The position numbers and the translations under genes were made by a program. Positions 1,196 to 9,045 of a DNA stretch of 13,839 nucleotides are shown here, piece by piece. The DNA lies in the NCBI RefSeq assembly GCF_006345805.1, contig NW_021826065.1, positions 1 to 13,839 on the forward strand, written 5' to 3'. The stretch is from Octopus sinensis (Eukaryota). Position 1 is the stretch's first letter. Every line of letters starts with the position of its first letter. The notes beneath the pieces are model-generated. The model did not search any database. It saw only the letters and a program-made list of their open reading frames with translations, and was not told the origin of the DNA.

Positions 1196-1395
1196 ATGTG
1201 ACCTCGTGTGTACCGTTGGCAATTTTTTTCCCTCTGTCTTCCCTTCTTTGGATCTTTCGTTTTCCTATGTTTCCGACGAAGAGCTCCGCTCGAAACGTTA
1301 AACCCTTCTTCTTTCCTGAGCGTCCAATAATACTATATTTGTTCCACGTCCTCGCCTTGTTGTTCTTTTTTGTGCTTTCTTGTTTGGACTAACTA
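1196..1395 (+). mobile_element. Short pyrimidine-rich repeat (family H) carrying a minimal type I hammerhead motif; probably Penelope-derived
   Basis: Homologous to 6921-7082 and 8860-9045 (shared GAAGAGC-loop-GCTCGAAA, then CC.GAGC.T..A.TAATAC); ends in (TA)n. Confidence 0.7.
1269..1303 (+). ncRNA. Minimal type I hammerhead ribozyme-like motif (U4C variant)
   Basis: GTTT-CCGACGA-A-GAGC(TCC)GCTC-GAAAC-GTT-AAAC: stem I GTTT/AAAC, stem II GAGC/GCTC, palindromic AACGTT stem III. Confidence 0.55.
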
Positions 1396-1591
1396 TATAT
1401 ATGTACATATATATATGTATATATATATATTTGTGTGTGTGTGTGTGTATGTATTTGTGTATATATTAAAATGGTAGGTATGTTCAATTTGGTGTGAGCG
1501 TAGGTGTGTTCCCTATGATAATGATGAACACGCGCTACCATATGTATTCATGCATATCTCATCGCTTTTCCTATTTCCTCATATTTTCCAG

Positions 1592-1803
1592 ATGGCTGGG
1601 TCGGCTACATCCGAGGATGTTACAAACCTGGGATGCTACACGGAATAAGCGACAAGAATGGATGCCGGCATTGGACGTCTCCCACCAACAACATGACGGC
1701 TCTCTACTGCTTCTGCGACACAGACTACTGCAACAGTGCTCCCGCTGCTTATTCATCCTCCATGCTAGTGTCGCTACTCATCGCTGTTGGAAGTCTTTTG
1801 TAA
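1592..1803 (+). CDS. Terminal coding exon of a GPI-anchored Ly6/uPAR (three-finger; quiver/sleepless-like) protein
   Basis: Polypyrimidine tract and acceptor TTTTCCAG (AG 1590-1591), phase-1 junction. Frame from 1594 reads GWVGYIRGCYKPGMLHGISDKNGCRHWTSPTNNMTALYCFCDTDYCNSAPAAYSSSMLVSLLIAVGSLL* with TAA at 1801-1803. It has the LU-domain IRGC and C-x-C-x-x-D-x-CN motifs, an NMT sequon, small residues after CN (omega site) and a hydrophobic tail. Confidence 0.9.
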
Positions 1804-2244
1804 AAGAAGAAGAGGCGACCGGGGGATGGGTCGGCGCACATTTATTCCCTCCTCTTGCAACTCCCCATCCTTCTCCTCATTGTCCTTGTATTACAAAATT
1901 TTGAAAATATCTGGCTTTGTAAAACTTTATTTTATTATTAATCTCACATTATACATCCATATATATAATATATATATATATATATATATAATATGAGGGA
2001 ATATTATTCCAAACTTACAGGGAAAAATTCAATTTAGAAATACTAAATCAAATTTCACAAAATATGATACATATATATAAATTAGAAAAAAAACAATACA
2101 TTCTATCAATTCAATAATGAAAAATTAAATTATACCATCTAGAAAATTATTATATATATATCTATTATATATATATATATATAATATATTATATATTATA
2201 TATATATATATATATATATATATATGTACTTGTGGACTGGCAGC

Positions 2245-2382
2245 TGTAAGTTCTGTGTGGTTAAGAGGCTCGCCTCCTGGTCACGTGATTTTGAGTACAG
2301 ACGCACATTAGTTAAGTGTCTCACCCTTGGACTGATCAAAACGTTGTCAGTGGATTGGCTGTCAGAAACTGAAGTAAACCCT
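2245..2382 (+). mobile_element. Highly diverged SINE family A head fragment
   Basis: CTGTGTGGTTAAGAGGCTCGC...AAGTGTCT...GTCAGTGGATTGGCTGTCAGAAACTGAAGTAAACCC is colinear with the family A head. Confidence 0.6.
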
Positions 2383-2527
2383 TAATAGACAACAATAAAC
2401 ATACATACATCATATATATACATATATACATACATAGATATATATATATATATATATATAGAATATGTATATGTATATGTATATATATATATATATATAT
2501 ATATATATATACGTATATATATATATA

Positions 2528-2903
2528 CTAGCAGTATCGCCGCGTTGCTCAGGTTTGTAAGGGAATAACTATAAAGCATTTTTAGAGAGTTATGCCAAAA
2601 AATAGCAAAAAAATGAGAAAAAAAATGATGGTAAAATTTTTTTGAGAGTAAAAAAAGGTTGAGTTGCGTCCCCTAGACAGTCTGTGGTTTGTTTGTTTTG
2701 ATTCTCGACCCCATGTCGAATTTATCGATTTTTTTCAGAACTGGGGAACTTTTCAAAATTTTCGCTGCGTTAGTTTTGAATTATGACATTGGGCTATGTG
2801 TGTGTCAAGTTTCATCAGAATCGGTTGAAAGCCGTGGTCAGGGTGAGGGTACGAGAAAACAGACACACAGAAACACGCACAGACAAACTGCCGTTTATAT
2901 AGA
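2528..2903 (-). mobile_element. Non-autonomous Helitron
   Basis: On the minus strand it begins TCTATATAAACGGCAG and ends with a degenerate GC-rich hairpin (CCTGAGCAACGCGGCG) followed by CTAG. It sits between A and T with no TSD, matching canonical Helitron termini. Confidence 0.8.
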
Positions 2904-3167
2904 TATATATATATATATATATATATATATATATATTATATATATTATATATATATATATATACGTAATATAATATATATATATATATAGATATTATATA
3001 TATATATATATATATATATATATATATATATATATATATATATTATATATATATCAATGTGAGTGCGTGTGCTTCAACACCGTTAGGTATATCTGTTTCC
3101 AAAACGTTTGAGCAGGAAACGGTGACTTGTTTTTATTTCTCCTGTCGACAAGTGGTCCACTGCTGGT

Positions 3168-3379
3168 TTGGACCTTTGACGTCACGTGATACTTAACTAG
3201 CAAAGCAGAAACATTGGACCACACGAATGGCTTCCGGTTGGAAAATAATTCGTTTGAATTACAGCTACAGCCCATCGCCTGGGCTTCCACTCATTTTCCG
3301 TTAACCCACGTTTATTACGAAATGAATTCGCTGACGCTGACATAGCGTTTGTCAAAACTGCGACGGCGTGACTATAAAA
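3168..3379. promoter_or_regulatory. Candidate cis-regulatory cluster in non-microsatellite, CpG-retaining sequence
   Basis: Overlapping CRE TGACGTCA (3177-3184) and E-box CACGTG (3183-3188), adjacent TGGACCTTTG nuclear-receptor-like site, ATTGG (3213-3217), ETS-like CTTCCGG (3231-3237) and TATAAAA (3373-3379). Motif matches only. Confidence 0.3.
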
Positions 3380-3767
3380 TCTGAACCACACACGTACACA
3401 TATTCACATATACAGAAACGTATAAACATGCAGACACACACAGATACACACGCACATACACGTAGACAAACAGACAGACACACACATATATTCATACTCT
3501 TAATTATTAAACAACGGCTCAGATTTTAACACAAGAAATTACAGGGACCAAGTTGGTTCGAAACAAGCAATGCATAACTCGGGAGTGTAACCCCAAATTA
3601 CGTGTGAGAATTGATGCAGGCCGATCAAAGAAGAGCCCTTAATTTCTGACCCGAACATGCTTGTATGTATACATACATACATACTTACATACAATACCGA
3701 TCAGGGTAAATTAGTGCTTAACACCACGATTGTGGATGAATATTCTCTAATGTTGGGTTTACAAAAC

Positions 3768-3866
3768 TACCATTGGTTTCATGCTCACAATTCTCTCGAC
3801 GAATAGCAACGTCACAAGTGGAAGGCTTGATAAATGCTTAGAATTGTCTGCATGAAACCAGTGGTA
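3768..3866. repeat. 27-bp inverted repeat with degenerate hammerhead-like right arm
   Basis: TACCATTGGTTTCATGC-TC-ACAATTCT (3768-3794) versus AGAATTGT-CT-GCATGAAACCAGTGGTA (3840-3866). Confidence 0.7.
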
Positions 3867-7423: not shown

Positions 7424-7565
7424 TAATAATAATAATAATAATAATAATAACAATAAAATTAATAACAATAAAAAAGAATAATAGTGATAATAATAATAAC
7501 AATAATAATAATAATAATAATAATAATAATAATAATAATAATAATAATAATAATAATAATAATAA
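7424..7565. repeat. (TAA)n microsatellite
   Basis: Direct reading; left flank of the R4/Dong fragment. Confidence 0.95.
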
Positions 7566-7566
7566 C

Positions 7567-7840
7567 GTCAGGTCTCAGGAAATCCCAAAATGGTAGATAT
7601 TCAAAGAATAGGGCTCAGGGGAACTGCCCATATCCTACGTAAAATACTTTCTATGTAGTTTCAAATTTTAAAACAATTCATAATTTTCTTATGTTTTCTT
7701 AAACATTCTCTTGATGCAAAATTAAATAATTGACACCCTAGGCATAACACCAACATGAACTTCTAACTTGTTGTCTCTTGAGGTCTTTGGGTGAGACTTG
7801 GAGCCAACTTGTACAAATACAAAGCAAATGTCAAACATAC
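7567..7840 (+). mobile_element. 5'-truncated R4/Dong-clade non-LTR retrotransposon: ORF end plus 3' UTR, inserted in (TAA)n
   Basis: 7569-7658 translates QVSGNPKMVDIQRIGLRGTAHILRKILSM*, matching the IQK..LLGTA.ILR..L C-terminus of R4/Dong restriction-like endonuclease domains. (TAA)n on both sides is the known Dong target. Confidence 0.85.
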
Positions 7841-7924
7841 AATAATAATAATAATAATAATGATAATAATAAAATAATAATATAATAATAATAATAATAA
7901 TAATAATAATAATAATAATAATAA

Positions 7925-8115
7925 TTTTGGCAAAAGGTTTGCAATTTTGGGGTTGGGGTATAAATTGATTACATAGACCCCTGTGAATAACTGGTACTTA
8001 TTTCATCGACCCTGAAAGAGATAAATGGCAAAGTCGACCTCGGTGGAACATAAAAAGGGACAAAATGCTATTAGCATTTTCTCCAGCCAGACAACAATGC
8101 TGCCATTTCGCCGCG
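7925..8115 (-). mobile_element. SINE family C, degenerate copy
   Basis: Minus strand reads GCGGCGAAATGGCAGCATTGTT...CCGAGGTCGACTTTGCCATTTATCTCTTTCAGGGTCGATGAAATAAGTACCAG with an (ATT)n tail; homologous to 8172-8360. Confidence 0.8.
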
Positions 8116-8171
8116 TTAACAATAATAATGTTGATGATCGTAATAATAATAATAATGATAATTACTATTAT

Positions 8172-8360
8172 TATCGATAGCACACCAGACGATATATGCT
8201 TAGCGGAATTCCTCCCGTCACTACGTTCTGAGTACAAACTCCGCCGGGGTTGACTTTACTTTTGATCCTTTCGGGATCGATAAAATAAGTACCAGTTGAA
8301 CTCTAGGTGTCGATGTAATCCACTTATCCAATCCCTCGAAACTGCTTCCCTTGGAAACCA
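8172..8360 (+). mobile_element. SINE family C, 5'-truncated copy
   Basis: ATGCTTAGCGG...CGTTCTGAGTACAAACTCCGCCGGGGTTGACTTT...ATCCTTTCGGGATCGATAAAATAAGTACCAG...GTCGATGTAATC, then (ATT)n. Confidence 0.8.
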
Positions 8361-8782
8361 TTATTATTATTATTATTATTATTATTATTATTATTATTAT
8401 TATTATTATTATTATTATTTTTATTATTATTATTATTATTATTATTATTATTATTATTATTATTATTATTATATTATTATTATTATTATCATCATCATTA
8501 TTATTATTTTATTATTATTATTATTATTATTATTTATTATTATTATTATTATCATTATTATTATTATTATTATTATTATATTATTATTATTATCATCATC
8601 ATCATCCTCATAATTTATCTTTATTATTATCTTTATTTTGTTGTTATATTATTATATTATTATTATTATTATTATATTATCATTATCATCATCCTCATAA
8701 TTATTATCTTTATTATTATTATATCTTTATTGTTGTTATTATTATTATTATTATTATTATTATTATTATTATTATTATTATA
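8360..8782. repeat. Compound (ATT)n/(ATC)n microsatellite
   Basis: Direct reading; source of the poly-I/Y/L ORFs in the track. Confidence 0.95.
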
Positions 8783-8859
8783 ATTTTGATACGAATTCGT
8801 GCATATAATGTTAGGATCATTATACAATATACGCATGCAACCATTTAGGCGCACTCATA

Positions 8860-9045
8860 TATAGACCGCTAGCGACTAAACCTTTTCTATTTTCTCTCCC
8901 TGTTTCTTTCTGTGTTCCTTTCTGACGAAGAGCGTAGGCTCGAAAAAAAACAGACTTTCTCACTTCCCGAGCGTTAAATAATACATCTGTTTCTTGGTTA
9001 CGCACCAGTCTTCGTCTTTTATTTTTTCGTAAATTCTCACTAAAT
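8860..9045 (+). mobile_element. Family H repeat with hammerhead core, stem III decayed
   Basis: 8918-8950: CTTT-CTGACGA-A-GAGC(GTAG)GCTC-GAAAAAAAA; canonical CUGACGA, but the C-GU-H part is replaced by an A run. Confidence 0.7.

What the first reader, a model, noticed from the sequence alone, without database searches (positions are those of the whole stretch)
1196..9045. Short repeat family built around a 35-nt minimal hammerhead, three copies in 8 kb
Seen: copies at 1269-1303, 6951-6987 and 8918-8950 keep stem II GAGC/GCTC with different loops (TCC, TTTAG, GTAG), and stem I covaries between the first two (GTTT/AAAC versus CTTT/AAAG). Cores read CCGACGA, CTGTTGA and CTGACGA, each followed by an extra A. 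All are on the + strand, about 160-200 bp long and abut microsatellites. Established: minimal hammerheads with palindromic stem III in Penelope elements are proposed to cleave as dimers. Inference: a high-copy non-autonomous ribozyme-bearing retroelement family. One copy lies in the intron just upstream of the Ly6 exon in sense orientation.
Basis: partly seen in the sequence, partly recalled or inferred. Interest (0 to 1): 0.7.

Follow-up and report, generated by a model that had tools for sequence, protein, structure and literature searches.

The report
Penelope stubs with altered hammerhead cores
The three repeats are end pieces of two very abundant Penelope-type jumping genes that carry a minimal hammerhead-ribozyme motif; most of the 42,000 genomic matches to this motif have a changed letter in the catalytic core, which likely slows self-cutting yet did not stop the elements from spreading.

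Summary
The three motifs are real. They are not a separate non-autonomous family but ~160-200-nt 3' ends (pseudo-LTRs) of two sister protein-coding Penelope-like retrotransposon lineages, A (copy 1) and B (copies 2, 3). Both were traced to RT plus GIY-YIG ORFs, and one complete pLTR-ORF-pLTR element was found. The genome holds 42,089 exact stem II matches. Of these, 20,834 have core CUGUNGA (A6U) and 8,333 have CCGANGA (U4C), 69% together. The variants are inherited lineage states, and copy 3's canonical core is a private reversion. No window copy is an intact canonical ribozyme. Copies end at an internal TATA junction in (TA)n. None of 67 B copies starts at the predicted cut; starts pile up at an initiator-like motif about 195 nt from the end, so the template was likely uncleaved RNA. 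PLE hammerheads and scattered truncated copies are published. I did not find fixed A6U in print, but the key paper was unavailable. The scan noted A6U and fixed-start stubs before on other genomes. Cleavage is untested.

The parts
1196..1395 (+). Copy 1: solo 3' end (pLTR stub) of PLE lineage A, U4C clade
   Evidence: 2,116 first-look candidates in G000, best 93-95% identical; nested in the U4C clade of a flank-only tree; starts 7 nt after the initiator-like motif
1269..1303 (+). Minimal hammerhead motif of copy 1: 4-bp stem I, core with C at position 4, extra A, 4-bp stem II, palindromic ACGU, H17 = U at 1299
   Evidence: Sequence
1592..1803 (+). Host terminal coding exon of a Quiver/Ly6-type protein (not part of the element)
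   Evidence: Translation from 1594; Pfam QVR E 7e-5; two homologues with that domain, one named as an Octopus protein
6922..7080 (+). Copy 2: solo 3' end of PLE lineage B, A6U clade
   Evidence: In the A6U clade; starts 41 nt after the initiator-like motif
6951..6987 (+). Hammerhead motif of copy 2: U at position 6 (lineage state), stem III word decayed to ACAU, H17 = A at 6983
8861..9042 (+). Copy 3: solo 3' end of PLE lineage B
   Evidence: 3,174 first-look candidates, best 86-91% identical; nested among A6U copies
8918..8953 (+). Hammerhead motif of copy 3: canonical CUGACGA by private reversion, but stem III and U16.1 lost and one stem I mismatch
   Evidence: Only CTGAC among 28 closest look-alikes including itself

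Best explanation
The three repeats are terminal-repeat (pLTR) stubs of two protein-coding, Neptune-like Penelope retrotransposon lineages, likely made when the element's endonuclease nicked a (TA)n microsatellite and its reverse transcriptase copied an uncut element RNA from an internal UAUA site back towards the RNA's start. Shown: element anatomy (pLTR, 5' UTR, RT-linker-GIY-YIG ORF, long low-complexity 3' UTR, pLTR), the fixed 3' end at the TATA of the pLTR/5' UTR junction, insertion beside microsatellites, a pile-up of 5' ends about 195 nt from the 3' end, no 5' ends at the predicted cut, and inherited A6U and U4C cores. Inferred: transcription starts in the upstream pLTR at the initiator-like motif; priming uses TATA microhomology; priming at the first junction gives the ~200-nt stubs and priming at a downstream junction gives the longer copies. 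Also inferred: the hammerhead is a slow, dimer- or protein-dependent ribozyme, weakened further by A6U or U4C, whose fold is still selected in source elements but whose cut is not needed to make an insertion. The window copies are predicted to be inert.
For: Parent elements: 14 of 20 RT-seeded loci carry the B end downstream on the same strand. A decayed B ORF finds 20 homologues with RT domains, best E 6e-109; 18 of 20 have a Cx(2-6)CxxC linker, and Pfam gives RT and GIY-YIG on 3 of 3 scanned. The A parent has RT and endonuclease remnants in L143. One complete element at G000:C1 about 9.695-9.701 Mb has motifs 6,274 nt apart flanking an ORF (E 3e-128 to P0001). Its 266-nt pLTRs show no substitutions and five small indels, and it has (TA)n on both sides. 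Partial tandems: 9 of 30 loci seeded at the ORF start have a same-strand B end about 500 nt upstream (three of the 9 share flanks, so 7 are independent). 24 of 25 junction-seeded loci read 3' end remnant, TATATA or a one-letter variant, then 5' UTR. 49 of 54 scorable 3' ends (70 examined) run into a microsatellite against 15.5% background. 5' ends: 0 of 67 called (70 examined) within 3 nt of the cut, and 19 of 67 reach over 300 nt upstream. 14 of 66 B and 28 of 47 A copies start within -3..+12 of the CATTC motif, against 6 and 3 in the 97 nt upstream (post hoc p 2e-8 and 5e-21). Selection in source lineages: A and B share 27 of 32 motif positions (read), two of the five differences being a compensatory stem I pair, while RT DNA is 66-67% identical and flanks are 57% and 62% identical (shuffled 58% and 55%). 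H17 is G in 2 of 224 copies and N7 takes all four letters. Literature: PAc primes internally about 85-92 nt past its cut site, its hammerhead is protein-assisted, and catalytic mutants still insert in vitro (PMC11167929). The D. virilis Penelope promoter lies in the pLTR (PMC2377424).
Against: No cleavage, transcription-start or priming data exist for these elements; both read-laying runs used contigs, which cannot show RNA ends. The 5' pile-up sits at AT-containing letters that could reflect microhomology joining to (AT)n rather than an RNA start. The complete element's 5' pLTR begins about 140 nt before the core, upstream of where its subfamily's stubs begin. PAc primed at a site not homologous to the cut DNA, unlike the microhomology inferred here. 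Cleaved RNA could simply be a poor template, so the lack of 5' ends at the cut does not show absence of cleavage. Among 5' pLTRs of tandems, 2 of 22 called starts lie within 3 nt of the cut, one being an internal deletion. In lineage A the non-CpG core had 0 of 192 changes against 3.4% in flanks (p 0.003), which could hint at selection on copies; subfamily differences inflate that flank value. Neptune placement rests on motifs, not on a tree with named references.
Confidence: 0.78

Rival explanations
1. The motif in lineage B and the youngest A subfamily no longer cleaves at all and is kept as a folded RNA signal, such as a binding or positioning site for the element's protein or part of the internal promoter.
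For: A6U is fixed across B subfamilies. The youngest A subfamily adds a U.U mismatch in stem I to U4C. Pairwise mutagenesis of another hammerhead found low activity for single changes in the CUGA turn (PMC9901934). Cleavage was dispensable for PAc insertion in vitro.
Against: Variation between subfamilies follows catalytic rules: N7, loop II and H17 vary, H17 avoids G (2 of 224), and C3, G5, G8, G12 stay. Natural A6C and U4C variants keep low activity (PMC3088659). U4C recurs in 12 of 18 motifs found near related ORFs in other animals' contigs, with different stems.
Confidence: 0.25
2. The ~200-nt stubs are a non-autonomous, SINE-like or retrozyme-like family: solo pLTRs transcribed from their own internal promoter and copied in trans.
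For: Sharp modal length in both lineages. Stubs vastly outnumber ORF starts (42,089 motif matches against 205 first-look candidates for the ORF start). A solo copy in (TA)n would regenerate the priming site if transcribed.
Against: 5' ends grade continuously into the UTR and ORF. The youngest stub subfamily has an ORF-bearing member with near-identical pLTRs. No head-to-tail stub arrays occur in the window, and the three copies are from different subfamilies.
Confidence: 0.12
3. The variant cores cleave efficiently in vivo because the dimer or the element's protein compensates, and cleavage with re-ligation makes circular templates that give the partial tandems.
For: Model proposed in PMC4209133. 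The 3' end-to-5' UTR junction is what a circle or a tandem would give. The palindromic ACGU is the majority state in both lineages.
Against: A tandem transcript gives the same junction. No footprint at the cut among 67 copies. Minimal PLE hammerheads were weak even with canonical cores.
Confidence: 0.1
4. Copy 1 has been co-opted to cut or regulate the Ly6/Quiver pre-mRNA.
For: Sense orientation about 196 nt upstream of the exon's acceptor (sequence).
Against: It is a lone U4C copy with no intact partner in the window, and single minimal motifs did not cleave in vitro. With one exact match per 65 kb, intronic sense copies are expected.
Confidence: 0.02

Closest known systems
Minimal type I hammerheads (min-HHR) in pLTRs of metazoan PLEs (Cervera and de la Pena 2014, PMC4209133; text parts 1-2 of 4 read, supplement file 2 searched, file 1 not available)
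   Same: Short stem I, extra base between positions 9 and 10.1, G10.1-C11.1, palindromic 15.2-16.2, location in pLTRs, and most motifs scattered singly as truncated PLEs.
   Different: Their descriptor requires CUGANGA and would miss the 69% of exact matches here with A6U or U4C. The only core variant in the parts read is U3-A8.
PAc (Poseidon of Anolis; Frangieh et al. 2024, PMC11167929; parts 1-2 of 4 read)
   Same: Fixed 3' end about 85-95 nt past the hammerhead cut, AT-rich targets, and no trace of cleaved RNA as template.
   Different: In PAc the hammerhead overlaps the ORF start and priming was non-homologous. Here about 500 nt of 5' UTR separate pLTR and ORF, a cysteine linker is present, and the junction carries TATA matching the (TA)n target.
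Neptune/Nematis-clade EN+ PLEs (described in Craig et al. 2021, PMC8557442; passages read)
   Same: RT followed by a CX2-5CxxC linker and C-terminal GIY-YIG, partial tandems, microsatellite bias.
   Different: Very long (CA)-rich 3' UTR (about 3 kb in the complete A element) and non-canonical cores. Clade not tested by phylogeny.
Small PLE-associated hammerhead variants that cleave as dimers (Lunse, Weinberg, Breaker, RNA Biol 14:1499; not held, seen only as a title and as cited in PMC6765202)
   Same: By title and citation: small PLE hammerheads with palindromic stem III acting as dimers.
   Different: Unknown. It may already list U4C or A6U variants.
Metazoan non-LTR retrozymes (PMC7229834, passages; bioRxiv 10.64898/2026.07.22.740005, part 1 of 5)
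   Same: Short hammerhead-bearing repeats related to PLE pLTRs.
   Different: Retrozymes are ORF-less tandem arrays with canonical type I motifs. These are dispersed solo ends continuous with an ORF.

Membership tests
PLE minimal hammerhead (min-HHR) | First core box CUGANGA | tested here: not met
   Not met by lineage B (U6 in 27 of 30 and 40 of 42) or the U4C clade of A (16 of 29). Met by older A subfamilies (4,231 exact matches with ACGT).
PLE minimal hammerhead (min-HHR) | GAAA box, U16.1 and H17 not G | tested here: met
   Majority state in both lineages; H17 is G in 2 of 224. Lost in window copy 3.
PLE minimal hammerhead (min-HHR) | Extra nucleotide between 9 and 10.1, and G10.1-C11.1 pair | tested here: met
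PLE minimal hammerhead (min-HHR) | Palindromic 15.1-16.1 stretch for a dimeric stem III | tested here: met
   ACGU is the majority in A and B; decayed in window copies 2 and 3. Minimum-energy folding of short homodimers preferred other pairings.
PLE minimal hammerhead (min-HHR) | Short stem I and stem II with covariation | tested here: met
   Outer stem I pair is G-C in A and C-G in B. Different stems with kept pairing in 18 motifs from related loci, 0 in the reversed control. The youngest A subfamily has a stem I mismatch.
PLE minimal hammerhead (min-HHR) | Self-cleavage after H17 as a dimer | not testable with these tools
   Needs an assay; only contigs could be laid.
EN+ Penelope-like element | Single ORF with RT and C-terminal GIY-YIG endonuclease | tested here: met
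   Decayed ORFs align along homologues P0001 and P0009, which score RT and GIY-YIG in Pfam. The decayed copies themselves gave one weak RT hit in 3 stretches.
EN+ Penelope-like element | pLTRs from partial tandem arrangement, carrying the hammerhead | tested here: met
EN+ Penelope-like element | Optional 30-40-bp tail beyond the 3' end | tested here: inconclusive
   2 of 70 3'-seeded copies matched the junction pattern beyond the end; no discrete tail length was established.
Neptune clade | CX2-5CxxC linker before the endonuclease and microsatellite targeting | tested here: met
   Linker seen in L102 and L107 and in 18 of 20 homologues; microsatellites at 49 of 54 ends. The linker is shared with Nematis.
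Neptune clade | RT phylogeny groups with named Neptune elements | not tested
   No named reference PLE proteins were fetched.
Metazoan non-LTR retrozyme | Head-to-tail arrays of short monomers, each with a canonical hammerhead | tested here: not met
   No such array in the window; copies are solo and from different subfamilies.
Metazoan non-LTR retrozyme | No protein-coding capacity | tested here: not met
   Continuous with RT-EN ORFs.
Metazoan non-LTR retrozyme | Abundant circular RNA | not testable with these tools
   No raw RNA reads were offered.

The most novel reading that the evidence does not exclude
Penelope-like elements keep the hammerhead fold for a job that does not need efficient catalysis. 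Two sister lineages independently gave up a normally invariant core base (A6U; U4C, followed by a stem I mismatch in the youngest subfamily) and still made tens of thousands of insertions from uncut RNA, so in these lineages the motif is a ribozyme turning into a protein-binding or priming-positioning element.
Probability: 0.25. Interest if true: 0.68.

Novelty: new variant of a known kind. Interest (0 to 1): 0.38.

Why it matters
The role of PLE hammerheads is an open question: they cleave poorly, Naiads spread without canonical ones, and PAc inserts without cleavage in vitro. This genome offers a natural series within one clade: canonical core, U4C, U4C with a stem I mismatch, and A6U, all of which amplified. 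That series makes the question directly testable. It also shows that CUGANGA-based searches would miss about 70% of these motifs here. The window copies themselves are ordinary dead insertions.

Tried and rejected
Rfam: no hammerhead match up to E 10. A strict CUGANGA-GAAA search finds only copy 3 in the window, near chance; requiring GAAAC finds none. No PLE protein remnant lies in the window. Expression and cleavage: no RNA holder listed on record; laying contigs of guessed-RNA runs showed the repeat but no RNA ends and no canonical intron joint among the joints listed, so no verdict. I considered that the pyrimidine tract ending in the core's AG is a splice acceptor; nothing supports it. 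I considered that CUG copies of lineage A are CpG decay of CCG; rejected for most, since they differ at linked flank sites and lie outside the U4C clade; one (L165) fits decay. An age comparison by mean pairwise distance did not separate U4C from canonical A copies (0.086 against 0.088; nearest neighbour 0.029 against 0.049); the 0.055 was biased by seeding. Minimum-energy folding does not favour the hammerhead fold for monomer or dimer, which is uninformative for such weak stems. PDB sequence search with the endonuclease stretch found nothing. Searches used the wrong frame for the host exon and are void for it; it was redone. The fourth row was a wrong stretch, so that alignment was not used. 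Target-site duplications could not be read because of flanking microsatellites. Literature: searches for A6U/U4C, for the variant core words, for octopus Penelope hammerheads and for non-canonical cores showed no report of fixed A6U in PLEs; a repeat annotation of an octopus has no mention of ribozymes in its main text (PMC13282606). Lunse et al. could not be read, and supplement file 1 of PMC4209133 was unavailable; both bear on the novelty claim.
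Full report
Observation. The window (G000:C2536, a 2.72-Gb animal genome; the host exon's nearest named homologue is an Octopus protein) holds three exact matches to the stem II plus GAAA pattern, against none in 200 shuffles. Only copy 1 keeps the palindromic ACGU. Copy 2 has ACAU, and copy 3 has lost U16.1. The exon at 1592-1803 encodes the end of a Quiver/Ly6 domain with a hydrophobic tail.

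Two lineages. Copy 1 and copy 3 retrieve different sets of loci. Aligned copies share a fixed 3' end followed by TA repeats and have ragged 5' ends. Whole-genome exact counts are 42,089 for the stem II pattern (11 for the reversed control), 20,834 with CUGUNGA, 8,333 with CCGANGA, and 4,231 with CUGANGA plus ACGT (a stricter pattern, not directly comparable). Only 17 of 42 copies seeded outside the motif match the stem II pattern exactly, so true numbers are higher.

Parents. Walking upstream from B copies gave a UTR, the end of an endonuclease ORF and a decayed RT. Of 20 loci seeded on that RT, 14 carry the B end downstream on the same strand. A 438-residue stop-free stretch found 20 homologues of 803-1027 residues, 18 with a cysteine linker; the three scanned score RT and GIY-YIG. 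Lineage A extends through over 1.3 kb of (CA)-rich UTR to RT and endonuclease remnants, 66-67% identical to B in DNA. One element of the youngest A subfamily is complete: two pLTRs 6,274 nt apart without substitutions, a broken ORF between them, and (TA)n on both sides. It was found in 1 of 8 regions fetched around that subfamily. For B, 9 of 30 loci seeded at the ORF start have an upstream pLTR in tandem (7 independent), and one more has an inverted piece. This is the partial-tandem structure defined for PLEs (PMC8557442; PMC2377424).

Ends. In tandems the pLTR is followed by TATATA, or a one-letter variant, and then the 5' UTR (24 of 25 loci). Solo copies stop at this point and continue into a microsatellite (49 of 54 scorable ends of 70; background 15.5%). 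I infer that reverse transcription is primed inside the RNA at this site from a nicked (TA)n target. The distance from predicted cut to 3' end is about 95 nt, close to the 85-92 nt of PAc (PMC11167929). Among 70 B loci seeded on the last 16 nt, 67 were called and none starts within 3 nt of the cut; 8 start downstream of it and 19 reach over 300 nt upstream. Starts pile up at a CATTC motif about 195 nt from the end in B (14 of 66 in 16 nt, 6 in the 97 nt before) and at the like motif in A (28 of 47, 3 before; six longer A calls rest on low-complexity alignments and are unsure). The window was chosen after seeing the data (p values). The motif resembles a Pol II initiator (recalled consensus, not tested). 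A run-off to the RNA start is my preferred reading; microhomology at AT letters is the rival.

The core. In copies seeded outside the motif, B has U at position 6 in 27 of 30 and 40 of 42. A has C at position 4 in 16 of 29 and U in 11. A tree of 76 rows built on flanks alone (149 columns, many forks unresolved, midpoint root) puts all 21 A6U rows on one branch (96/98) with window copy 3 inside, and 21 of 22 U4C rows on a branch (98/88) nested among canonical A copies. That branch holds the subfamily with the shortest end branches, which also has H17 = C and a U.U mismatch in stem I. Individual B copies decay neutrally: non-CpG core changes are 5.2% against 7.3% in flanks (p 0.22) and 4.6% against 6.3% (p 0.25), and CpG sites in the motif are 19% changed. 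In A the non-CpG core showed 0 of 192 changes against 3.4% (p 0.003), with positions 4 and 5 excluded as CpG. Between lineages the motif is kept at 27 of 32 positions while flanks are at or near shuffle level. Across 224 copies (partly seeded on core patterns) N7 takes all letters and H17 is G twice. So selection acted on source elements and follows hammerhead rules except at positions 4 and 6. In 80 metagenome loci of related ORFs, mostly one assembly of another animal, a relaxed descriptor found 18 motifs, 0 in the reversed control; 12 have U4C and none has A6U.

What the changes do. A natural A6C hammerhead cleaves at under 0.1 per minute and U4C lowers activity but supports viroid infection (PMC3088659, section 8 and passages). 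Single changes in the CUGA turn gave low activity in a pairwise scan (PMC9901934, passages). Single minimal PLE motifs did not cleave and dimers cleaved weakly (PMC4209133). The PAc motif needs protein, and its mutants still insert. I therefore predict weak, assisted cleavage for these lineages and none for the window copies.

Comparison and verdict. The elements meet the tested features of EN+ PLEs and have Neptune-type motifs; clade was not tested by phylogeny. The motif works like the PLE min-HHR but fails its CUGANGA feature in most copies, so it is a variant. Retrozyme membership fails. The general picture is published. The fixed A6U core and the canonical-to-U4C succession were not found in my searches, but Lunse et al. 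was not readable. The scan's own unchecked notes report A6U in shark-like genomes, fixed-start stubs elsewhere, and a similar ~210-nt family in another genome; a note on another family in this genome had already suggested that short copies begin at a promoter. Nothing matched these two sequences by look-alike. Interest 0.38.

Noticed in passing
window 3941-4070 and 5112-5241: Inverted pair, 88% complementary, 1,041 nt apart. The + arm has a CUGAAGA box and a distant GAAAC with a near-palindromic run; possibly the ends of another PLE-type family in inverted arrangement.
   Followed up: partly
window 385-455, minus strand: A GAAA box followed by an 8-nt palindrome and C, with a short hairpin before it but no CUGANGA box before a TA run; possibly a truncated hammerhead of another PLE family.
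   Followed up: partly
window 1-170 with 489-746, 994-1140, 9815-10229: Copies of another dispersed repeat, 70-90% alike; looks like a tRNA-type SINE (recalled, not tested).
   Followed up: no
window 9543-9745 and 9240-9370: Long fold-back sequences between TA runs, seen by eye; perhaps head-to-head transposon ends or MITEs.
   Followed up: no
G000:C18 3.67-5.79 Mb: 26 of the 100 listed lineage-A seed matches lie here. Seven fetched share kilobases of flank at 83-96%, so they were multiplied with a tandemly duplicated region rather than inserted separately.
   Followed up: partly
L381 3500-6300 (G000:C1 about 9.698-9.701 Mb); L123, L136: Lineage A has a very long (CA)-rich low-complexity 3' UTR, about 3 kb in the complete element.
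   Followed up: partly
L388-L467 (metagenome contigs): Related PLEs in another animal mostly carry the U4C core (12 of 18 motifs), with wholly different stem sequences.
   Followed up: partly
L054, L020, L192, L157, L158, L179: Further sister subfamilies with other loop II, N7 and H17 letters on long branches.
   Followed up: partly
window 13660-13839: GC-richer, possibly coding sequence at the contig end after a long (TATC)n run.
   Followed up: no
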